Shown piece by piece: positions 42,222 to 52,814 of a stretch of DNA of 64,000 bases. Source of the DNA: a virus; IMG/VR virus record IMGVR_UViG_3300035099_000047, positions 1 to 64,000 of that record. One strand, written 5' to 3'. The notes beneath the pieces are model-generated. The model worked only from the letters and a program-made list of their open reading frames with translations. It was not told the origin of the DNA and searched no databases. The translations under genes were made by a program, and so were the position numbers. Position 1 is the stretch's first letter. Each line of letters starts with the position of its first letter.

Positions 42222-43661
42222 TCATTTCACTGACAAAATCACAGGACAAGCAATGTCCAAGCAACCAGCTATCAGTACCTCTTGCCTCTCCGTACTATGA
42301 GCAAACCGACGATCCAGCAAATTGACGTGGATAATATCCTTTTCCTTCTCCTCCTCGCTGCTGTATAGCCCCAACATAGCTGTTACATGATCGTGTACCC
42401 TGCGATCATTGTTAAAATTGCGTTTACGCAATTGCATCCCGCTGTAACTCTCTGCATCCGCCTGAGTAGCAGTCACCACACAACAGTTGAAATCCTGACT
42501 CAAGCGGCGCAAATCCATCCAGTTGCGATTGATTTTGTCCCGTCGATCCTCCCTGCCATGGGGCAAAGCCAAAATGTCAGCATAATCTACCAACAACACA
42601 TCCACGTGCCATCCCTCACGGCCCCAACCTTGCAATTTAGATCTGATTTCAGCTACAGCCAAGCTACCAGCGCTATAACAACTCAAACGAAACAGATCTT
42701 TACCTCGACTAATCTTGCGCCAAGCCCGGAATGCTTCCACCCCACTAATACCCTCCAACCGCCTTTCTTCAACAACCGGGGGCAGCCTTTTGTCTTTGAA
42801 CTCTACAGGATACAAAACTGTCTTGGTCTTCAATGGTCGCCTCAACACCCGCTGACCCAGCCGCATCAGCACTTCGTATTTGGTATGATCCCCAGCATCA
42901 AAGTAAGCCAAGTTGCACCGAGCTTTGACAACCCGATAGGCTAGGTCTTGAATGAAAAAGCTCTTCCCCCGTTTAGAGCTTGCTATTAGCACCACCAACG
43001 CATCCCTGCGGAACTCGTTACCTATAAACCTGCCCAGCACCCCAGGGTAAGTAACCAACGGCCGCATGTGATCTTGATCATCAATTGCTTCCATCCACAC
43101 ATCCAAATCCTCAGTCACCTTAATCGTATCATCCCCATCCAAGTTCACAGGCCCCAGAGCACTCAACCGACCCTGAGCCCCGTAGGCGTCATTGCGGTCC
43201 TCGAGGTCAACCTGAGCCTCTTCTATTGCTTTCTTGACTTTAACTCTGGTAAGCAACGTACTACCCAAATCCAGAGCGTAGTCGGTACGATAGTGTTCCT
43301 GATTGTTTAGCCACTCATCGTTCAAACTAGTCAGCAACCGTTCCACCAACTTAACACTGTCTTCACTCCGACCAACAGCCCAATCCTCATACATACCCCG
43401 TATAGCCGGACCCGGGCTGGTGCCATACTTGCGCATGTAATCTATGCACCAACCGGCTACCATGTTTTCTTCATTGGTGCTAAACAAGTCCCCACCATTC
43501 CATATACCAGCTACTCTGGCGCAGACCACAGGGTCCATGATCATGGAACCCAGAAATCGCCGGGCATCCTTGCCTTCGTAACGAACCGATTTCATTAGTT
43601 CACACCCCAGCCTCGGCCATACAATTGTATACCGGATTGATGAAACCAGCCGGCAACCCAA
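42222..43661 (-). CDS. DnaB-like replicative helicase (start probably MKSVRY)
   Basis: Walker A ASSKRGKS, LLVDYADIL, VVTATQ. Confidence 0.85.
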   Translation of the reverse strand: MGCRLVSSIRYTIVWPRLGCELMKSVRYEGKDARRFLGSMIMDPVVCARVAGIWNGGDLFSTNEENMVAGWCIDYMRKYGTSPGPAIRGMYEDWAVGRSEDSVKLVERLLTSLNDEWLNNQEHYRTDYALDLGSTLLTRVKVKKAIEEAQVDLEDRNDAYGAQGRLSALGPVNLDGDDTIKVTEDLDVWMEAIDDQDHMRPLVTYPGVLGRFIGNEFRRDALVVLIASSKRGKSFFIQDLAYRVVKARCNLAYFDAGDHTKYEVLMRLGQRVLRRPLKTKTVLYPVEFKDKRLPPVVEERRLEGISGVEAFRAWRKISRGKDLFRLSCYSAGSLAVAEIRSKLQGWGREGWHVDVLLVDYADILALPHGREDRRDKINRNWMDLRRLSQDFNCCVVTATQADAESYSGMQLRKRNFNNDRRVHDHVTAMLGLYSSEEEKEKDIIHVNLLDRRFAHSTERQEVLIAGCLDIACPVILSVK

Positions 43662-44832
43662 ACTCCTGCAACACCACGTCTAACTCCTCTTGAGTGGGCC
43701 TGCGTCGAGGGTTTTCAAATGATGCTGGATTGTATCGCTTTTGCCAAGTGTAGCAAATGGCTTTATACAACTTGTCCTCCGGACAGCCCGCATCCACCTT
43801 GTAACGATAGTATTGGGAATCTTGAGCAAGGAGCTTGAACCGCTTAGTGTCTATTGTACCGAACCCGGTCAAAGTCATGTGGCCATTGGTACCTTCTCGT
43901 TGATCCAATTCCCACAATCCCATATCTCTTTGATACTTGCCCCAGTAAGTACACATATCAGTTAATGCCCACAGCCGACGTATGTACTGCCACCAATAGG
44001 CTTTTTTGTACCACTTGATAAACTTCCAAACATCCTCGTTTGTAGCATTTCTTTCCTTCTTTACTCTATCAATTTCTCTCATGCAACCCTCTCTTGTAAC
44101 CGCTCTCCTTTTGGGTCCTGCATGGACTAAATCATCATCTTCATCAACTAACACTCCAAACAGGTAAGCTCCCTGTTCCCTTGTTTCTTGGTCATATTCG
44201 GATCCGCTGGGTTTTCCATGAGGACATTCCTTCATTTTGTGTGTGCGACATTTTTCGTTAGAAAAATGTCCCGCCTTTTTCCTAGTTGCCTTACTCTTAA
44301 TATAGGAGTTGGGGGTTTGACTAGGATCCAATACCGCAGTTTCACGGTAATTGGAGTCATGATTTTCTGGTTCCAAATACCGTGGTTCCCCAGTAGATGG
44401 AGTTCCTTGGTCACTAGTGTTTTGCACTTCTAAATACCCATTATCCAAAAGCCACAAGGTCACTACCCTGTGTATCCATTTAGCATTGATGCGAATGTGT
44501 CGCCTTGGAGGGCAACCGAACCTTGCTACTTCTATAGGAGCTCCATCTGCCTCCGATAGTTGCTTCAGTAGTCGGGCTTGTACCTCGTAGGATAGACCTA
44601 GTTCCTTTTGCATTTCCTCCACTGTGTAGAAAAACCAACCCCTATTCCACTTGTATCCCTTACTCTTCATAACCCTAGCGTGAAAACGCACTAGGGCATG
44701 AAGAAAACAAGCTTTTTCCAACCCTAGTTTTAGCACAATAGCTTGATGTACAGTGAAATGGCCTTTGCTAATCAGATCCCTCTTCATCAACTTCTTGAAT
44801 CCTTCCATCGTGAAATCTGCTGTTACTTTCAT
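43600..44832 (-). CDS. Phage replication initiator-like protein (N-terminal winged helix)
   Basis: GWFFYTVEEMQKELGLS...GCPPRRHIRIN, low-complexity linker, upstream of helicase. Confidence 0.65.
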   Translation of the reverse strand: MKVTADFTMEGFKKLMKRDLISKGHFTVHQAIVLKLGLEKACFLHALVRFHARVMKSKGYKWNRGWFFYTVEEMQKELGLSYEVQARLLKQLSEADGAPIEVARFGCPPRRHIRINAKWIHRVVTLWLLDNGYLEVQNTSDQGTPSTGEPRYLEPENHDSNYRETAVLDPSQTPNSYIKSKATRKKAGHFSNEKCRTHKMKECPHGKPSGSEYDQETREQGAYLFGVLVDEDDDLVHAGPKRRAVTREGCMREIDRVKKERNATNEDVWKFIKWYKKAYWWQYIRRLWALTDMCTYWGKYQRDMGLWELDQREGTNGHMTLTGFGTIDTKRFKLLAQDSQYYRYKVDAGCPEDKLYKAICYTWQKRYNPASFENPRRRPTQEELDVVLQEFGLPAGFINPVYNCMAEAGV

Positions 44833-45271
44833 GTTCGTTCTCTCCCTCTTTGGGGTTGACTGATTTCATTTGATCAACGGCCCATTTAGCAATCATTTCG
44901 TTGACCGATTCCCACTTTATCCGTATATGTCTTTTTGCAGGCAATCCCATCCTTTTAGTTTCTATTACACCCTCCGCCATGAGCCTATTCAGTAATCTAG
45001 TTTGAGCCTCTACAGGTATTTCTAAACCTCGTTCTATCAAACTGGATGGACAACAGAACCACCCCCCTACCCGCATAGCTATTGGCAACTCACTGCAGTA
45101 ATCAATCAGGTAGTGCAGTAATCCAGCGGCCTCCAATCCCAAACGAGAAGCAGTACCTCGATGAACTCGGATGTAGTCGTCTAGTGATAGAGCGCTAAGC
45201 ATAAACGCTTGTTCTGTACAATTGTCATAGTCCATGTTCATTTTCCTATGTTGTGGTTTACAACTTCTCAC
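44768..45271 (-). CDS. Stand-alone paralog of the initiator winged-helix domain
   Basis: LGLEAAGLLH...GWF...QTRLLNRL...GLPAKRHIRI aligns with the N-terminus of 43600..44832. Confidence 0.65.
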   Translation of the reverse strand: MRSCKPQHRKMNMDYDNCTEQAFMLSALSLDDYIRVHRGTASRLGLEAAGLLHYLIDYCSELPIAMRVGGWFCCPSSLIERGLEIPVEAQTRLLNRLMAEGVIETKRMGLPAKRHIRIKWESVNEMIAKWAVDQMKSVNPKEGENEHESNSRFHDGRIQEVDEEGSD

Positions 45272-45303
45272 TCCAGGCCAGTCTGTGTTTAGGTCTGGAT
45301 GAA

Positions 45304-45672
45304 TTAGAAAGGGGTGTAGTGTTTTTCATCGTGTTCTTCCGGCGTCAGCGCAAGCAGATTTCCTGGTCGGTTGTTGGTATTATTGCTATCTTTGTGATGG
45401 ATGTCATGGTTTTCTGGTACAACTCGTCGATGATAATTCATCCATACCAGACGGGACAGGCTTATGGCAGCTACGGTTCGATGACCCCCACATCTCAATT
45501 CAGCTTGAATGAATAACCTATTTTCCCCGTCAACTTTTGGGGACAGTTTGACATACTTACGACGGGAATTGTGGAACTTCCATACCGATCCATCCCGGTT
45601 GACTAGCAGCCTAGCGCTCCGCAGTAGATCAAAGAAAAATTGGTCATTCTTGGCTTTGTTGTCCCGAGGCAT
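45304..45672 (-). CDS. HNH endonuclease
   Basis: SRLVW...DIHHKDSNNTNNRPGNL...EH. Confidence 0.85.
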   Translation of the reverse strand: MPRDNKAKNDQFFFDLLRSARLLVNRDGSVWKFHNSRRKYVKLSPKVDGENRLFIQAELRCGGHRTVAAISLSRLVWMNYHRRVVPENHDIHHKDSNNTNNRPGNLLALTPEEHDEKHYTPF

Positions 45673-45705
45673 GTTGGCAGCGCTAGCGTAACATCATCTC
45701 AGTGG

Positions 45706-45754
45706 AAAAAAGTAGAGCCCGTCCGACCCTTGCGGGTTAGCTCCGGACGGGCTC
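45706..45754 (-). terminator. Intrinsic terminator / attenuator hairpin
   Basis: GAGCCCGTCCG...CGGACGGGCTC followed by TACTTTTTT. Confidence 0.7.
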
Positions 45755-45809
45755 AAATACGGCTCGATGGGATCGCGGTGGACGGGACCTTACCGCATGC
45801 CGTGTTTCT

Positions 45810-45838
45810 ATTATATTAGGTTGATACATACGGGTCAA
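45810..45838 (-). promoter_or_regulatory. Sigma70 promoter TTGACC-17-TATAAT
   Basis: Near-consensus hexamers with 17-bp spacer. Confidence 0.75.
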
Positions 45839-46009
45839 GGCCCCGCCAATAAATAACCCACCGAACCACTGGGAGCTAACCAGGGTGGCCAACCATCTGC
45901 ACCTCCGTCACGAGGGACCTTATGTCCATCAGCCTCAAGGCTATAGCCTTAAACGTTTTAGCCTAACTATTATACCACTTGATTGGCGCGGATTTTTAGA
46001 ATCCCAAGG

Positions 46010-46480
46010 TCATTTGGAAGCTTTGACAAATCTACCCCGCTCTCGGGGCTGCTGTTTAGCAGCTTCACTCCACTCCTTGCGGGATCGATCGTCCCAGGGC
46101 AACCCGTTGACATACCTCCAGGGCAATTCGGCCCCCTTGGGAATTAACTGCTCCGTTGCTGGTTCCAGGTCCTGCTCCAACACCTCTACGGGTTGGTTAG
46201 TAACACCCCGAGTCACCAACCAAACCAGCACTGAACTATCAACAGCCAGGTAGGGAGGATCAGATCCACCGTCCGGGTAGCAGGCGTCGTTTGGGTAGCA
46301 GGCGTGAACGTAACGCCCTAAAAACCGCTTGCGGGCTCCCACCACCACACCAACAAAAGGGGTGGTGGTTGTTTCACGGTGGACCCGCTTGTGCTGATCC
46401 TCGTCATAATGGACACTGCAGGTTGCCTTGACCAAAACCCATTGACCAACGTGGAACCGGGGTTTACCTTTTTTGCTCAT
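46010..46480 (-). CDS. Hypothetical protein
   Basis: ORF on coding strand. Confidence 0.6.
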   Translation of the reverse strand: MSKKGKPRFHVGQWVLVKATCSVHYDEDQHKRVHRETTTTPFVGVVVGARKRFLGRYVHACYPNDACYPDGGSDPPYLAVDSSVLVWLVTRGVTNQPVEVLEQDLEPATEQLIPKGAELPWRYVNGLPWDDRSRKEWSEAAKQQPRERGRFVKASK

Positions 46481-46763
46481 TCAATTGTTTCCTCAGTTTT
46501 TCGATATCTTTGATAGTCTGATCCGGCCAGCTACCTGTAGGCCAGACCTTTTCATTGACCTTCATCGCCTCAACTATCAATCCGATAAATCCTTTTTGGA
46601 TCTCAACCTCAGACTTCAGCTCATTTATCTCGTTTTGAGCCTGCCTCAGTTCAGTTTTCAAACGTCTAACCTGAAAAGCAGGATCAACAACAATCATTGC
46701 CATCAGAACCACTCCTGCAATAAAAGTAAGTACCAACAAAACTCGCAGTGAAAGAGTCAACAT
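46464..46763 (-). CDS. Membrane-anchored coiled-coil protein
   Basis: N-terminal TM helix followed by heptads. Confidence 0.6.
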   Translation of the reverse strand: MLTLSLRVLLVLTFIAGVVLMAMIVVDPAFQVRRLKTELRQAQNEINELKSEVEIQKGFIGLIVEAMKVNEKVWPTGSWPDQTIKDIEKLRKQLNEQKR

Positions 46764-46960
46764 GGTTTTTGTCCCTCCAATTTCTCATTGTTCTCAATGT
46801 GGATCACAAACCGTTGACCCCTGACCACCATGAACCGAATGGAGTGATACTGATTGCTTTCGTCCTCCACAACTACTTCAAGATGTTTATCGCAAGGTTG
46901 CAGGTATTTGAGGAACTTGCCAATAGTCATTGTATTCCTCCTATTGGGGACCTTATGCAA
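46757..46960 (-). CDS. Hypothetical protein
   Basis: ORF on coding strand. Confidence 0.45.
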   Translation of the reverse strand: MHKVPNRRNTMTIGKFLKYLQPCDKHLEVVVEDESNQYHSIRFMVVRGQRFVIHIENNEKLEGQKPC

Positions 46961-47214
46961 TTTCCTACCAATAGTAGGTCCCCTTTTTATCCAAATTTCA
47001 ACTTCTTTTGCTGTATTTTACCACAGATAGTGCATCGGCGCTCTTGCCAAATCACTGTTCTAGTTAAAGGTTTCCCAATAGTCACTCCCCCTCGATGATG
47101 TTGGATGCCCCCCAATCTGCCACCTTTTTCTCCCACTGAGTAAATTCCTCACACACATGGACACCCATCAAACGGCCATATAATCGTTTCAATTGTTTCC
47201 ACATTTCCAACCCC

Positions 47215-47529
47215 TTAGCAATGACCAGACATCAAAGTGGAACCTGCGCAATAAGGAGCAAGAACCATCCTTTTCGTGCACATGGCGTATGAAGTCAATC
47301 TTTGGCTGAAGACCAAAGGAAGGGTCCTCATCGTTCGTTTTCGGCGGCTGCCGACTATCCGAGGGGGGAGTGAACTTCTGTTGATCGGGAATACACGGAA
47401 CTTGCTGTTCGAGTTGTTTTTTCGATCACAAACAACACTCAAACACACTATAACCACACCAACAAACACTATGAAACTAAGGCGGCCCACAGCTTCATCT
47501 ACCACGTAAACAGGTATGGGCTCTGGCAT
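47215..47529 (-). CDS. Hypothetical membrane protein
   Basis: N-terminal hydrophobic segment. Confidence 0.35.
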   Translation of the reverse strand: MPEPIPVYVVDEAVGRLSFIVFVGVVIVCLSVVCDRKNNSNSKFRVFPINRSSLPPRIVGSRRKRTMRTLPLVFSQRLTSYAMCTKRMVLAPYCAGSTLMSGHC

Positions 47530-47599
47530 GGTTTTGTCCTAATTCTGCTTTTTGTAAGCAACTGTGTGGATAATCCTTTGAAAGACCCAGATGATAACA

Positions 47600-47947
47600 T
47601 CCTTGTCTAGTCTTGTCGGGTCAGGTCTGGTTTCGTCGAGTCGGGTCGCATCTCGCCTGGTCCGGTCCGGTCTAGTCACGTCCTATCATGTCCAATCCGG
47701 TCTTGCCGTGCCCTGGTCCAGCCTGGTTTGGTTGGGTTTTATTTGGTATAATCTTGTTGCACCCAGCCCTATCTAACCCAATTGTGTCGCGTTGCATCGG
47801 TCTGGTCTAGTCTTGTCTGATCCGGTCTCGTCCCGCCCTGTCTCGCCTGGTCAGGTCCAATCGTGTCATGTTCGATCTGGTTTGGTCTTGTTGGGTCAGG
47901 TCTTGTCAGGTCTAACCTTGTCCTGTCAAGTCTGGTCCAATCTAGTT
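47600..47947 (-). repeat. Pentamer array C, (RRY-NN)n, mostly GAC-NN, ~70 units
   Basis: GTC/GCC/ATC/GTT every 5 nt on the plus strand with a variable dinucleotide. Confidence 0.9.
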
Positions 47948-47953
47948 GTGGGG

Positions 47954-48481
47954 TCAAGTATCCTTCATCAGCTCTAACAACTTGCTGGGCTCTATTTGAC
48001 GTAGCCTAGTCCGGCCATCTTGTGAAAGCAAACGCTGTGCCTTATTGTGAAAGCCGCCAGAACTCAGCAATGATTCCATACCCATTTGAGCCGTCCTGAT
48101 ATTCAGTTCCAGTCGTTCCTCTGGGCTCATTTCCGACCGATCAGTCCCAACTGCTATGCGCATCATCCTCTTGGAAAACTTGTGGATGCGCTTGGAACCT
48201 CGATTCAATACCTTTAGTCGGCCCTTTGAATCTAAACACACCCAAGCTTTCTCCTCGGGAAACCACCTCCACGTCACGTTGTAATTGACTTCGGTGTAGT
48301 AAATCGCGTAAGTTACATTGCGGTATCCCGGAGATTTGGAATCGCAGGGCCTACCTACAATTTTGTTCATTTCCTCCAGGGGAATTTTGTCCCCTGGTTT
48401 TCCTTTGCACATGTGTTGAACAGCTGCAGCAGTGTAACTGCTAAGCTCATACATGCGCCTGCCGTCTCCCACGTTACTCAT
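47954..48481 (-). CDS. Partner protein of the RAMP/pentamer locus (putative winged helix + helical)
   Basis: GAAAGGA RBS; lies between arrays B and C. Confidence 0.7.
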   Translation of the reverse strand: MSNVGDGRRMYELSSYTAAAVQHMCKGKPGDKIPLEEMNKIVGRPCDSKSPGYRNVTYAIYYTEVNYNVTWRWFPEEKAWVCLDSKGRLKVLNRGSKRIHKFSKRMMRIAVGTDRSEMSPEERLELNIRTAQMGMESLLSSGGFHNKAQRLLSQDGRTRLRQIEPSKLLELMKDT

Positions 48482-48499
48482 AAATCGATCCTTTCTTTG

Positions 48500-49065
48500 G
48501 TTAAGTCTCGTCTTGTCTTGTTGTGTCGCGTTCAGTTTTGTCTAGTCTAGTCGGGTCAGGTCACATCGGGTTGGGTCTAGTCTGGTCGGGCCCTGTCATG
48601 CCTTGTCTGGTGTGCTTTGATCGCACCGTGCCCCGTTTAATCTAACCGTGTTGTGCTTGATTAGACCTTGCTTTGTCCAGTCAGGTCATATTGCGTCAAG
48701 TCGGGTCTGGTCCAGTCTCGTCAAGCCTTGTCAGGTCCGGTCTCGTCCAGTCATGTCTAGTCACGTCATGTCCAGTCCAATCCTGTCACGTCATGTCCCG
48801 TCTTGTCATGTCTAGTCAAGTCCGGTCCAGTCGAGTCCTGCCCCGTCCTGTCTAGTCACGTCATGTCCAGTCCAGTCTCGCCCAGTCAGGTTTGGTCTGG
48901 TCCGGCATCGTCCAGCTATATCTAGTCCTGTCTTGTCGCGTCACGTCCAGTCCCGTCACGTCCAGTCGCGTCCAGTCTAGTCCTGTCCCGTCTCGCCTCG
49001 CCTAGTCCAGTCATGTCTCGTCATGTCCTGTCAAGCCGTGTCCTGTCAAGCCTTGTCCTGTCATG
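48500..49065 (-). repeat. Pentamer array B, ~113 units in unbroken 5-nt register
   Basis: GTCNN periodicity on the plus strand; no long minus-strand ORF. Confidence 0.92.
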
Positions 49066-49076
49066 ACATACTGAGT

Positions 49077-49655
49077 TCATTCGTCGGTTTGGAAGTCCAA
49101 CTTATCAATCCGGAACCGTCCATTGATACCACCGTTTTCCACCCTCATGGCGCCCCAACCAATGAACTGACCAACACACCGCAGATGATCGTGGATCTGA
49201 TCCGGGGTGATTTTGCCGTCAAAGACGTCAAAATCTCCGTGGGCCACCCATTGATGGAACGTTGGGAAAATGCGAGGTACCCGCTTGGTACCTCCATGCT
49301 TACCGTCGGATGGTACCGGAAGGGGGATGGGATCCACGTCTTCGACCGTCATAGGAGATCCATCAGGTTTAAACAATAACACTGATGAACCAGGTGAAAT
49401 ACCCTTGACAAATCGGCTGGCAAAAGTGGTACGACCCTCCACCTTGCGCCCCAACCATTTGGCTGCAGACAGTAGAGAGTTGGTAACGCAGAAGGAATTC
49501 AGGTAACATTGACCTTCTGGGTTGACCCAAAGTTTCTTCTTCCAAATCCTTTCCTCGAACTGTTCATAAGTCTCCCCGTCCTGCTTTTTGTCCAGCAGAT
49601 ACCTGGAAACCATGAGATCAGCCATCCCGATCACTTGAAAAGTAACCTTCAACAT
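49077..49655 (-). CDS. Stand-alone RAMP (Cas7/Csm3-like) protein
   Basis: N-terminal strand ending G..LM, YLNSFCVTNSLLSAA helix, RIFPTFHQW, C-terminal Gly-rich loop GQFIGWGAMRVENGGINGRF; AAGGAG RBS. Confidence 0.75.
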   Translation of the reverse strand: MLKVTFQVIGMADLMVSRYLLDKKQDGETYEQFEERIWKKKLWVNPEGQCYLNSFCVTNSLLSAAKWLGRKVEGRTTFASRFVKGISPGSSVLLFKPDGSPMTVEDVDPIPLPVPSDGKHGGTKRVPRIFPTFHQWVAHGDFDVFDGKITPDQIHDHLRCVGQFIGWGAMRVENGGINGRFRIDKLDFQTDE

Positions 49656-49761
49656 ACAAACTTCTCCTTGAAAAGGGCTTCACGACTGATTGGTTCTTGA
49701 GTGTCGGCCCTGTGCCGTACTGCTAACCATGTCTTGCGCTTGCCCTTGATTCACCTAACAA

Positions 49762-50014
49762 GTTCTTGTCTGGTCTAGTTTGGTCTAGTCATATCTCGTC
49801 AGGTCTAGTCTGTTCCCGTCCGGTCCTACCGCGTCTTGTCGGGTCACATCTAGTCACGTCCGATTCCGTCGTGTCTTGTCGGGTCACATCTAGTCACGTC
49901 CGGTCAGGCTTGGTCAGATCATGTCTCGTCATGTCAGGTCGGGCCCAGTCTCGTCAGGTCTAGTCTGGTTTGGTTCGGTCCCGTCTTGTCCCGTCCTGTC
50001 AGATCGGGTCAAGC
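49762..50014 (-). repeat. Pentamer array A, ~50 units
   Basis: GTCNN periodicity; internal 30-nt duplication gtcttgtcgggtcacatctagtcacgtccg. Confidence 0.9.
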
Positions 50015-50022
50015 TAATTACT

Positions 50023-50904
50023 TTATTCTACCAAGAATCGTTTACGCAACTCAGCAATTTCATCGGAATCAGCCTCAGCTGCATCTTTACCAGTTTCCAA
50101 TTTTACTCGATGGGTCTCTCCAGAGTATCTGGCCAACTCGTCAGCCAACCTGTTAGCTCGCCATTGAGCTTGAGTTTCACTGTCAAAACAAACCACCCTG
50201 ACCGGATACTTGATCATTTTGTTCAATTGGGCTGGAGTGTAATTCAATCCCATAGTGGCTACGGCTCCAGGTCCAATGGCCCAAGCATCAGCTGGCCCTT
50301 CCACAATTATTATACACTGTCTGGCCAAATCATTCCCGTAAAGCAACTCTTTTGCAGGAATGGCTTCTTCTGCTACTGGAGCATTACTGTACCGTTTGCC
50401 TTTGTCGCCAATAGAGCGGGTTGTCCAGCTAACTGTTTCACCCCGGTACTGAATAGGTATGAATAGGCTCCAACTGTACCTAGCCGCAATCCCTATGCCT
50501 TGCACACCCCACAACCGAGCTATACGGTCCGGATCAAATCCCCTGCCTTGCAGGTACTTGCGATGAGCCTTGGCCAGCAGTCCTACACCAGGAGGAATTT
50601 TAAGCTTACCTGCTAATCGTTCAGCCCATTTACGATTCCGCTCCCAACCAACACTTTTGAGCAAATCATAGCATTCCAGAACGGACAGATGGGTAGTTTC
50701 AGACAGAGCATCAACTAACCGAATTGACCCACATGACCAGCAATTGGCATAACCTCCGGACACATTGATGCCCAGTCGAAACCGGCCACTGCGGGGACTG
50801 CACCTTGGACAGTCGATTTGCACCCATCCCTCACGAGCGTGCTCATGTTGACCCACCGTGCGAGTCGGTATCCTCAATTCGGCAAGTAATGAATCAATCC
50901 TCAT
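50023..50904 (-). CDS. DNA primase (Zn ribbon + TOPRIM)
   Basis: CPRC...CWSCG, IIVEGPADA, CFDSE, KDAAE. Confidence 0.88.
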   Translation of the reverse strand: MRIDSLLAELRIPTRTVGQHEHAREGWVQIDCPRCSPRSGRFRLGINVSGGYANCWSCGSIRLVDALSETTHLSVLECYDLLKSVGWERNRKWAERLAGKLKIPPGVGLLAKAHRKYLQGRGFDPDRIARLWGVQGIGIAARYSWSLFIPIQYRGETVSWTTRSIGDKGKRYSNAPVAEEAIPAKELLYGNDLARQCIIIVEGPADAWAIGPGAVATMGLNYTPAQLNKMIKYPVRVVCFDSETQAQWRANRLADELARYSGETHRVKLETGKDAAEADSDEIAELRKRFLVE

Positions 50905-51230
50905 GACAACACAGCCTCAGCCCGCTCAACCACAGCCTTGACACGGTTGAAATACTCACGTACAAACTTCATGGCCCGACGCACGGCCTTGTTGGGATCA
51001 GAGTATTGTTTAAGGTTTGGATCGTCCCATATTGACCAACCGCCCCCAGCGTGATCTGGATTGTTTGATACCACGGCCCAATACTCAACCTTGCCATGGA
51101 CTGATATTGGACCATTGTAAGCATAGAACTGCCAGCCGATGTTTTTCCACACCCGTAGCTTCCAGCCCTTACCCTTCAACTTGCGAATCAGAGCCCGACC
51201 TGCTTCAACTGCTTCTCGCTTGGTTTTCAT
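50901..51230 (-). CDS. Hypothetical protein
   Basis: AAGGAG RBS; coupled to primase. Confidence 0.6.
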   Translation of the reverse strand: MKTKREAVEAGRALIRKLKGKGWKLRVWKNIGWQFYAYNGPISVHGKVEYWAVVSNNPDHAGGGWSIWDDPNLKQYSDPNKAVRRAMKFVREYFNRVKAVVERAEAVLS

Positions 51231-51240
51231 GATTAACTCC

Positions 51241-51453
51241 TTAAGCTGTCCAACGAGGAAACTTGAGCCGCTTAGTTTTCAACACAATCTTGGCCAGTTC
51301 CTCCAACCCAGTGACATCCCACCCCTTGCAGCTTGCCACATGTCGGGCGAACTTCGTATACAGTTCATCCTCCAAGGCATGAGCCTTCTCCGGATCGTAA
51401 TTCTTGGCTTCTTTGATCCTTTCCACCATACATTCCGCCTGCTCAAGAGTCAT
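51241..51453 (-). CDS. Hypothetical phage protein
   Basis: DPEKAHALEDELY...FPRW. Confidence 0.6.
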   Translation of the reverse strand: MTLEQAECMVERIKEAKNYDPEKAHALEDELYTKFARHVASCKGWDVTGLEELAKIVLKTKRLKFPRWTA

Positions 51454-52814
51454 AACCGCATCTCCTTTCCCATTTGAATCAAGAGTTCGTCATACACCCC
51501 CAATTGCTCTCCACGGCCATTGCCATCAATGACCTCATTGAATGTTTCCTGCCTACGTTGTATTATACACAAAACCTTCTCTTCAATTGTATCATGAGCC
51601 ACTAAATAATAGACAGAAACGTCCTTGGTCGTGCCGATTCTCCAACACCTGTCTTCATTCTGGATAGCAGTACCGGGGTTCCAAGGCAATTCCGCAATGG
51701 CTACGTTGTGAGCAGCAGTCAGGTTGGTACCAACTCCAGCGGCCTTATGTTCCCCAAACAGTACCCGCACCCGTGGATCTTGTTGAAACTTGTCCGTTAA
51801 GGCCCCTCGCTTGTTGCTAGGCACGCTTCCGTCAATCGTAACAGACGAGTACCTACAACCCTGTCGAAGTCCATCTAGGAACGCTCGATGGTGAGCAAAA
51901 AACACCATCTTCTCTTCACTCTGGTCTAGCCAATTGTTTAGCCAATCTATTACAGCTGGTAGCTTCTCTTGGGATGCCAATCTCATCAAGTACCCAACCT
52001 TTGAGAACCCCTCAGTCTTCAATGCACGACGAGCCTTGACCGTCCCATACTTTTGGATCCAATTGCGAAAATCGTTTTCTGCCCGTTGATACTCATCAGG
52101 ATCTCGCAACGGTACCGGCATTACACAACGGAATTTGTCTGGCAAGTCCTTGAGCACTTCCCGTTTGTTATGGCGCACTAACACCCTACGTTTCAATTCC
52201 TCATGCAATTCATCTAGGTGGCGGGTGTGATTGAAATTCCAACCCCACGGGGTCAATTTGGGTGGGCAGTAGCGTTCGGCATACCTGGCACGATTACCCC
52301 ACACCTTGGGTTGCAAAATGCTGAGCACGGGCCATAGTTCAATGACTCGGTTCAAAAAAGGGGTACCACTGAGTGCCAATACATGAGGAACGTTGAGGCA
52401 AATGGCTCTGGTGCAAATCGTCCTAACGCTACGCGGCGAACTGAGCATCTGACATTCATCAATTATGATTGTTTCAGCCCCGTACCAATACAACCATTTC
52501 ATCCAGTACTGCAAAATGTCATAATTGATGATGACTATATCTGGCCGTTTGCTTTTGTAAACAATATCCCGTGGGGTGGTGGACTCTGCGATGAAAATGT
52601 TTGGGTTATTTAACACCCGCTTGGCCTCCCGTTCCCAATGGAACTTGACGGAAGCGGGGCAGATCACCAGGGCCGGGAGGGCATCAGGATGATGCTTCAG
52701 ATACAGGTAAGACGTGAAGGTCTTACCAAGACCAGGGTCCATCGCCAAAAGAGGACGGCCGTCGAACCACTCGATTTCTCTGAGAGCTTGGATTTGGTAG
52801 GGGTAGGGTATCAC
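51450..52814 (-). CDS. SNF2-family helicase
   Basis: MDPGLGKT, IIDECQ, LSGTP, QNEDRCWRIG. Confidence 0.92.
   Translation of the reverse strand: MIPYPYQIQALREIEWFDGRPLLAMDPGLGKTFTSYLYLKHHPDALPALVICPASVKFHWEREAKRVLNNPNIFIAESTTPRDIVYKSKRPDIVIINYDILQYWMKWLYWYGAETIIIDECQMLSSPRSVRTICTRAICLNVPHVLALSGTPFLNRVIELWPVLSILQPKVWGNRARYAERYCPPKLTPWGWNFNHTRHLDELHEELKRRVLVRHNKREVLKDLPDKFRCVMPVPLRDPDEYQRAENDFRNWIQKYGTVKARRALKTEGFSKVGYLMRLASQEKLPAVIDWLNNWLDQSEEKMVFFAHHRAFLDGLRQGCRYSSVTIDGSVPSNKRGALTDKFQQDPRVRVLFGEHKAAGVGTNLTAAHNVAIAELPWNPGTAIQNEDRCWRIGTTKDVSVYYLVAHDTIEEKVLCIIQRRQETFNEVIDGNGRGEQLGVYDELLIQMGKEMRL

What the first reader, a model, noticed from the sequence alone, without database searches (positions are those of the whole stretch)
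48500..49065. Array B keeps an exact 5-nt register for ~560 nt while NN varies, with a degenerate block that may delimit guides
The triplet's G/A falls at positions divisible by 5 from 48500 to 49060 without indels, although neighbouring dinucleotides differ. This is unlike a slippage microsatellite, which homogenises units and gains indels. A block at ~48611-48674 relaxes from GTC to other RYY triplets. Array C has a similar relaxed block (47716-47799), shifted by exactly +1 nt and then restored. Short NN runs recur within and between arrays (ctagtcacgtcatgtccagtcca twice in B; gtctagtcacgtc in A, B and C). Inference: selection acts on register and on NN information, the relaxed blocks are processing boundaries or linkers, and recombination shuffles guide segments.
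Basis: partly seen in the sequence, partly recalled or inferred. Interest (0 to 1): 0.8.

Follow-up and report, generated by a model that had tools for sequence, protein, structure and literature searches.

The report
Phage VIPR guide arrays, GAC-NN type
The 565-base five-letter repeat is one of three guide-RNA arrays of a VIPR system (a CRISPR-related, phage-borne RNA-guided DNA silencer first described in 2026); it is a real and unusually long, spacer-less example of a kind that is already known.

Summary
Array B (48500-49065) is 113 five-base units in one register with no indel. Three positions are near-constant (GTC on the + strand) and two are at maximal entropy.

VIPR was described in 2026 preprints, and one of them already lists GAC/NN as a non-canonical repeat. 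This scan has also noted VIPR loci in at least 115 other genomes.

Features particular to this locus:
- There is no inter-guide tail, and the single-register run is about twice as long as in any of 181 loci examined here.
- Triplet variants are almost all transitions (74 of 78).
- A second sediment strain has 23 substitutions and no indel in 106 bases of array A, next to identical flanks.

The relaxed blocks do not resemble relatives' tails or each other. Sharing between arrays is at chance level. No target was found, and no RNA data exist.

The parts
49763..50012 (-). Array A: about 50 units of GAC-NN in RNA sense, lying between the primase gene stop and the vipr gene.
   Evidence: In-phase GTC on the + strand. 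It is hypervariable between strains at 49887-49992, with 23 substitutions and no indel.
49656..49762 (-). Structured non-repeat RNA between array A and the vipr start codon. It is a candidate 3' tail or leader.
   Evidence: MFE -31.2 kcal/mol, z -2.65; 1 of 200 shuffles folds as well. No Rfam family matched.
49077..49655 (-). vipr homologue, 192 aa: a minimal Cas7-type RAMP.
48500..49065 (-). Array B, the finding: 113 GAC-NN units in one register. It runs from 11 nt after the vipr stop to 19 nt before the next start codon, with no tail.
   Evidence: No tail match. Longest single-register run of 181 loci. Identical in strain X2 over 48638-48960.
48610..48674 (-). Relaxed block of array B: 13 in-register units whose triplets are RRY in RNA sense rather than GAC.
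   Evidence: Fold z -1.8. Not similar to the block in C or to relatives' tails beyond chance.
47954..48481 (-). Conserved partner gene, 175 aa: a vap-like accessory protein with a winged-helix-like N-terminal domain and a helical hairpin.
47605..47945 (-). Array C: about 68 units of GAC-NN, including the shifted block.
   Evidence: Strain X2 diverges into other array-like sequence beyond 47648.
47716..47799 (-). Relaxed block of array C: 17 RRY units, one base out of register, with the register restored at 47800.
47530..47604 (-). Structured region after array C, beginning GGAUGUUAUCAUC. It is a candidate 3' tail.
   Evidence: MFE -18.4 kcal/mol, z -2.57. It resembles the start of tails in L160 and L125 (GATGCCATCATCC), but this is not significant in a region-wide scan.

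Best explanation
The three arrays, the 192-aa RAMP gene between A and B, and the 175-aa gene between B and C form a VIPR-type system of the non-canonical GAC/NN class.

Shown here:
- The protein is a Vipr homologue.
- The arrays lie on its coding strand.
- The pairing of gene and arrays recurs in dozens of uncultured phages.

Inferred from the published SUSP1 work:
- The minus-strand transcript (GAC-NN)n is coated by Vipr, one protomer per five bases.
- The protein holds each GAC (tolerating RRY) and presents the two free bases.
- Together the free bases read double-stranded DNA of a competing element through a gapped code and silence it.

Inferred from this locus:
- The arrays grow by in-phase duplications of whole units, which keeps the register automatically.
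- NN diversifies fast by substitution.
- Selection keeps purine-purine-pyrimidine at the triplet.

Array B is unusual in having no inter-guide tail, so how or whether it is cut into guides is unknown. The relaxed blocks are most simply older or weaker-binding units rather than punctuation.
For: Protein:
- The fold is Cas7/Csm3-like over the whole length.
- The family profile matches SUSP1 Vipr at 98.2% probability, E 3.9e-14, residues 2-184 against 1-190. SUSP1 vipr and its GGT-NN arrays were read directly.

Association of gene and arrays:
- 37 of 120 IMG/VR loci picked only by 7xGTCNN carry a Vipr-family ORF within 1.5 kb.
- 34 of 37 metagenome loci picked only by the protein carry GAC-NN runs on the gene's strand, on both sides.
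- The 175-aa partner is conserved beside vipr.

Specificity residues:
- SUSP1 R179, which holds the pyrimidine, is invariant here as R171.
- The two residues that hold the second G are replaced: R138 by F130 and W178 by M170. Both replacements are invariant in the GAC clade.

Constraint:
- Entropy profile across the five positions.
- Transitions against transversions at triplets are 74 to 4.
- The strain comparison shows substitutions only.

Literature:
- VIPR description (10.64898/2026.04.26.720920).
- GAC/NN arrays next to Vipr-like folds (10.64898/2026.10.21.760802).
Against: - The defining GGY triplet is not present; the units read GAC.
- Array B lacks the 3' tail and the 9-30 repeat length of described vrRNAs.
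- NN composition fits no codon-frame model better than a uniform one. The published wobble-skip frames fit worst, at -14 and -30 bits.
- Expression, processing and binding were not observed.
Confidence: 0.85

Rival explanations
1. The relaxed RRY blocks are punctuation. They are weak-binding stretches or linkers where the long transcript is cut, or where Vipr filaments end, so that they delimit guides.
For: Both long arrays have one such block, and both blocks keep or restore the 5-nt phase. A tail-less array needs some way to set guide ends. Relatives' tails themselves begin like degenerate units, for example GATgc ACTca.
Against: The blocks do not resemble each other or any of 46 relatives' tails above shuffle nulls. 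No significant fold, promoter, terminator or ribozyme was found. One block per 68-113 units would still leave segments far longer than any described guide. Array A has no such block.
Confidence: 0.15
2. Much of array B is a runaway expansion. A once-short vrRNA grew by in-phase duplication, and most units are now functionless passengers. On this reading the register reflects the mode of growth, not selection.
For: Within-array duplications of 4-6 units occur at offsets of whole units. Close relatives carry 8-45-unit runs. NN composition is not codon-like.
Against: Only a small part of B consists of recognisable duplicates. Triplets stay RRY with almost no transversions. Zero indels over 113 units, and zero in the diverged strain block, is unexpected for unconstrained repeat DNA.
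Confidence: 0.15
3. The arrays are DNA-level priming sites or an origin. 5'-GTC-3' is the recognition triplet of the T7 primase (established knowledge), and the arrays lie beside a Toprim primase gene in the replication module.
For: Primase (phrog_47, Toprim), an SNF2 helicase and an O-like initiator flank the locus. All GTC triplets are on one strand.
Against: In relatives the arrays travel with vipr, not with a primase. Neighbours there include integrase, portal, terminase and CsrA genes. Sister clades use GUC, GAA or CGC triplets in the gene's sense. The window's primase specificity is unknown.
Confidence: 0.03
4. The arrays act as a decoy or sponge RNA that soaks up Vipr protein of competing phages, or buffers the phage's own, rather than guiding it to targets.
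For: Competition for Vipr by solo vrRNAs is reported for SUSP1 satellites (10.64898/2026.10.15.759431). The arrays are very long, tail-less and without identified targets.
Against: The arrays sit in cis with their own vipr and partner gene, as in ordinary VIPR loci. The fast NN turnover seen between strains would serve no purpose in a sponge.
Confidence: 0.05

Closest known systems
Type II VIPR of Escherichia phage SUSP1 (Vipr + Vap1 + four vrRNAs): bioRxiv 10.64898/2026.04.26.720920, with structures in 10.64898/2026.04.26.720927
   Same: A lone RAMP protein of about 195 aa, homologous over its full length. A small partner gene. Sense-strand arrays of 5-nt units with three fixed and two free bases on both sides of the genes. 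Phage-borne, and no self-target.
   Different: The triplet is GAC, tolerating RRY, not GGY. The residues that contact G2 are replaced. Arrays have 50-113 units against 9-16. Array B has no pseudoknot tail. An array lies between vipr and the partner gene. The partner has no sequence similarity to Vap1.
Non-canonical VIPR arrays (GAC/NN, CAC/NN, WGT/NN, TGH/NN) found by entropy periodicity: bioRxiv 10.64898/2026.10.21.760802
   Same: The same repeat pattern, GAC/NN, next to a Vipr-like fold. The window's locus is most simply a member of this class.
   Different: That report is computational and gives no architecture that I could read. The window adds a tail-less 113-unit array, the RRY tolerance, strain-level variation and a conserved 175-aa partner.
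VIPR 'staggered' arrays, in which vrRNAs abut without spacers (fig. S18 legend of 10.64898/2026.04.26.720920)
   Same: Contiguous repeat tracts in which one vrRNA ends where the next starts. This could explain a tail-less array.
   Different: The figure and the type assignment are not available to me. Whether those arrays use GAC, or keep one register for hundreds of bases, is unknown.
Class 1 CRISPR backbone (Cas7 / Csm3 / Cmr4 on crRNA)
   Different: No CRISPR repeats appear in the window's repeat scan, and none of the nine flanking ORFs scanned against Pfam or PHROGs is a cas gene. The step is 5 nt with two bases read, and the target is read with a skipped base (published for SUSP1, not tested here).

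Membership tests
VIPR system | Vipr protein: a minimal RAMP with RRM core, G-loop and thumb | tested here: met
VIPR system | Sequence homology to an experimentally characterised Vipr | tested here: met
   hhalign of a 61-sequence family profile against SUSP1 Vipr: probability 98.2%, E 3.9e-14, full length. Pairwise BLASTP E 0.001.
VIPR system | Flanking non-coding tandem 5-nt repeats with a conserved trinucleotide alternating with hypervariable NN, on the vipr strand | tested here: met
   Entropy 0.5-0.7 bits at the triplet against 1.94-1.97 bits at NN. Same-strand GAC-NN runs in 34 of 37 protein-selected relatives.
VIPR system | Constant trinucleotide is GGY (canonical definition) | tested here: not met
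   The RNA-sense triplet is GAC. Variants are GGC, GAU and AAC. The papers allow 'a related consensus', and GAC/NN is listed as non-canonical VIPR.
VIPR system | Each vrRNA has about 9-16 repeats (up to 30) followed by a conserved structured 3' tail | tested here: not met
   Array B has 113 units in one register and no match to relatives' tails. Arrays A and C are followed by regions folding at z -2.6, which may be tails. Relatives of the same clade do have tails, mostly 15-28 nt.
VIPR system | Accessory vap gene with a predicted DNA-interacting function | tested here: inconclusive
VIPR system | vrRNAs are expressed, processed and bound by Vipr | not testable with these tools
   Only two DNA sediment-metagenome runs hold the sequence.
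VIPR system | NN dinucleotides match natural targets under the 1-nt skip rule, with no self-target | tested here: inconclusive
   No self-target under skip 0-3. No enrichment in a 1.2-Mb local set. Six exact 10-unit scans of IMG/VR returned nothing. One 8-unit seed scan gave 11 chance-level hits.
CRISPR-Cas (class 1) | CRISPR repeat-spacer array and a cas operon with several RAMPs | tested here: not met
   No 25-40-nt repeat array appears in the window's tandem-repeat scan. The locus has a single RAMP, and its neighbours are replication genes. PADLOC gives no significant Cas hit.
Primase recognition-site cluster or origin | The arrays co-occur with a primase or replication genes in relatives | tested here: not met
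   The arrays follow vipr into unrelated neighbourhoods with integrase, portal, terminase and CsrA genes.

The most novel reading that the evidence does not exclude
Array B may not be cut into short guides. Because it has no tail and keeps one register for 565 bases (and array C restores its register after a slip), a Vipr filament could nucleate once and run the whole transcript in 5-base steps. That would give a 'poly-guide' in which any stretch can engage DNA. The low-affinity RRY blocks would then be where filaments break, a punctuation written in affinity rather than in a separate tail sequence.
Probability: 0.12. Interest if true: 0.7.

Novelty: new member of a known kind. Interest (0 to 1): 0.4.

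Why it matters
VIPR is months old as a concept, and only the GGY type has been tested experimentally. This locus is a clean natural example of the GAC/NN class.

What it offers:
- A conserved partner protein.
- A prediction for the residues that set the middle base: F130 and M170 here, in place of R138 and W178 in SUSP1.
- Natural evidence that the triplet needs only purine-purine-pyrimidine.
- A strain pair in which the guide letters change fast while the frame never slips.

Its tail-less 113-unit array exceeds the stated natural range of up to 30 repeats. It therefore poses a concrete question about how guide length is set. None of this changes the picture of what VIPR is.

Tried and rejected
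- Primase-site idea. GTC is the T7 primase triplet and a primase gene is adjacent. I dropped this once the arrays proved to follow vipr, not primase, in relatives.
- TRAP-like protein-binding RNA. Superseded by the Vipr homology.
- blastn and tblastn against cultured phages: nothing significant.
- Pfam, PHROGs and PADLOC give no name for the 192-aa and 175-aa proteins.
- Relaxed blocks as homologous elements or tail remnants. An alignment looked 68% identical, but the local alignment score equals the unit-shuffle mean. An nhmmer tail profile and Smith-Waterman comparison with 46 tails stayed within null.
- Promoter/terminator scan and folding of the blocks: nothing above shuffles.
- Rfam, including hammerheads: nothing.
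- Target hunts. Own genome under skip 0-3. A 1.2-Mb local set at chance level, with 7-8-unit seeds that did not extend. Four window guides and three relatives' guides in IMG/VR found nothing real.
- Reading the guides as codons gave no recognisable motif. Codon-frame likelihoods were no better than uniform.
- No RNA holder is listed among public runs, so expression and RNA ends could not be examined.
- The first metagenome scan, with the single protein, found no relative; the scan with the alignment did.
- Genome collection: only one cellular genome, Paracoccus litorisediminis, holds a relative of the close clade, and it uses CGC-NN.
- The X2 joint 49600 to 50129 has only 22 letters on its shorter side, and I did not interpret it.

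Full report
**1. What is there**

The window is the first 64 kb of a single-contig 172,227-bp phage genome from a sediment metagenome. Between 47.6 and 50.0 kb lie three arrays of five-base units. Each unit reads GTC plus two free bases on the + strand. These are the only such arrays in the genome.

Array B (48500-49065) has 113 units and no indel. Entropy is 0.50, 0.61 and 0.68 bits at the triplet and 1.94 and 1.97 bits at the two free positions.

All three arrays fill the gaps between minus-strand genes. In transcription order the locus reads:
- primase, 50904-50023
- array A
- a 192-aa gene, 49655-49077
- array B
- a 175-aa gene, 48481-47954
- array C
- a 104-aa gene

The one exception is that the 13-mer said to be in all three arrays lacks its first base in A.

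**2. What it is**

A literature search on 'pentanucleotide repeats' led to the VIPR preprints. These describe phage-borne systems made of a minimal RAMP (Vipr), a small accessory gene (vap) and vrRNAs built from GGY-NN units. In them the NN bases read double-stranded DNA with one base skipped per unit.

I fetched phage SUSP1 and read its vipr gene and its GGT-NN arrays directly. A 61-sequence profile of the window protein's family aligns with SUSP1 Vipr over the full length at 98.2% probability, E 3.9e-14. The family is large, with 686 representative clusters.

**3. The link between protein and arrays, tested in both directions**

A blind scan of IMG/VR for seven GTCNN units returned at least 120 loci. 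Of these, 37 carry a Vipr-family ORF within 1.5 kb.

In the other direction, 37 metagenome loci were chosen only by the protein and oriented by it. Of these, 34 carry GAC-NN runs on the gene's own strand, usually on both sides. This fixes the RNA sense in the window as (GAC-NN)n on the minus strand.

The 175-aa gene is a conserved partner. It lies next to vipr in six relatives at 22-41% identity. Its N-terminal domain looks like a winged helix, but the structural matches are weak. It shows no sequence relation to SUSP1 Vap1.

**4. How it likely works**

By homology, and not shown here, Vipr binds one protomer per unit. It holds the triplet and presents NN for gapped pairing with DNA of competing elements.

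The published contacts give a check:
- R179, which holds the pyrimidine, is invariant here as R171.
- The two residues that hold the second G are replaced: R138 by F130 and W178 by M170. Both replacements are invariant in the GAC clade.
- Sister clades with GUC-NN (L054, L056) or CGC-NN (L181) carry R-F at the G-loop positions.

So the middle base co-varies with the residues that read it.

**5. Constraint and turnover**

Within the arrays, departures from GAC are 74 transitions to 4 transversions. The triplet therefore tolerates purine-purine-pyrimidine, including in the relaxed blocks.

A second sediment study holds a near-identical phage. Its contig across 49803-50261 has 23 substitutions, all inside 106 bases of array A, no gaps, and no differences in the other 353 bases (p = 3e-16). 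All nine changes at triplet positions are transitions. At NN positions there are eight transitions and six transversions. In array B the two strains are identical over 323 bases. In array C the second strain runs into different array sequence.

Shared NN strings of 4-6 units occur only within an array, at whole-unit offsets. Sharing between arrays is at chance level. Growth by in-phase duplication is enough to explain the register. The absence of indels in the diverged block hints at selection as well.

**6. What is unusual**

In relatives the arrays are strings of vrRNAs of 8-45 units. Each ends in GACaa-GACgc or a similar pair of units, followed by a conserved tail that is mostly 15-28 nt and breaks the five-base phase. 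The last vrRNA before a gene ends in GACaa-GACtt plus a T-run, as in the window.

The window's arrays contain no such tail. The longest single-register RRY run is 89 units, or 113 if two non-RRY units are bridged. The next best among 181 loci is 45 units, and the median is 14. The structure preprint puts natural vrRNAs at up to 30 repeats.

The regions after arrays A and C fold better than shuffles (z -2.6) and may be terminal tails. Array B runs straight into the next gene's ribosome-binding site.

**7. What could not be shown**

No target was found in the phage itself, in the local set or in IMG/VR. NN composition fits no codon-frame model. No RNA data exist. The relaxed blocks resemble neither each other nor any tail beyond chance, and they have no detectable signal. 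Their role is therefore open.

**8. Novelty**

VIPR is published as preprints from 2026. GAC/NN arrays beside Vipr-like folds are explicitly listed in 10.64898/2026.10.21.760802. This scan has already noted VIPR loci in at least 115 other genomes, including longer arrays.

The locus is therefore a new member of a known kind. It has an unusually long, tail-less, single-register array and useful natural-variation data.

Noticed in passing
L054:4956-5519 (-) and arrays; L056:10801-12090; L109: A sister clade of Vipr proteins (about 30% identity) has arrays that read GUC-NN in the gene's sense. Each has 12-13 units and ends GTCaaGTCaa plus a T-run or terminator. The middle base of the triplet therefore differs between clades (A, U, G).
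   Followed up: partly
L130:3900-4660; L181:2300-3400 (Paracoccus litorisediminis NZ_WMIG01000026.1): Further triplets were seen next to Vipr homologues: GAA-NN in a 647-kb metagenome contig, and CGC-NN in the only cultured-genome relative found. G-loop residues differ accordingly: A-M-R in L130 (as in the GAC clade), R-F-R in L181, D-W-R in SUSP1.
   Followed up: partly
83 of loci L001-L120 (e.g. L007, L010, L031, L038): These are single GTCNN arrays of 11-47 units (mostly 13-25) in viral contigs, with no recognisable Vipr ORF within 1.5 kb. They may be solo vrRNAs of the kind reported for SUSP1 satellites, loci with more distant Viprs, or plain microsatellites (L001 is low-complexity).
   Followed up: no
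L124:4838-5017; L125:4922-5107: In two relatives a CsrA-family gene lies directly after the arrays downstream of vipr.
   Followed up: no
window 49656-49772 and 47530-47612 (minus strand): The non-repeat RNAs after arrays A and C fold at z about -2.6. The one after C starts GGAUGUUAUCAUC, like the tail starts in L160 and L125. Array B has no such region.
   Followed up: partly
window 49887-49992: Strain-level hypervariable cassette in array A: 15 of 22 units differ between two sediment samples while the flanks are identical.
   Followed up: yes
window 43600-52814: The VIPR locus sits inside the replication module: O-like initiator 43600-44832, Toprim primase 50023-50904 and SNF2 helicase 51450-52814, all on the minus strand.
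   Followed up: partly
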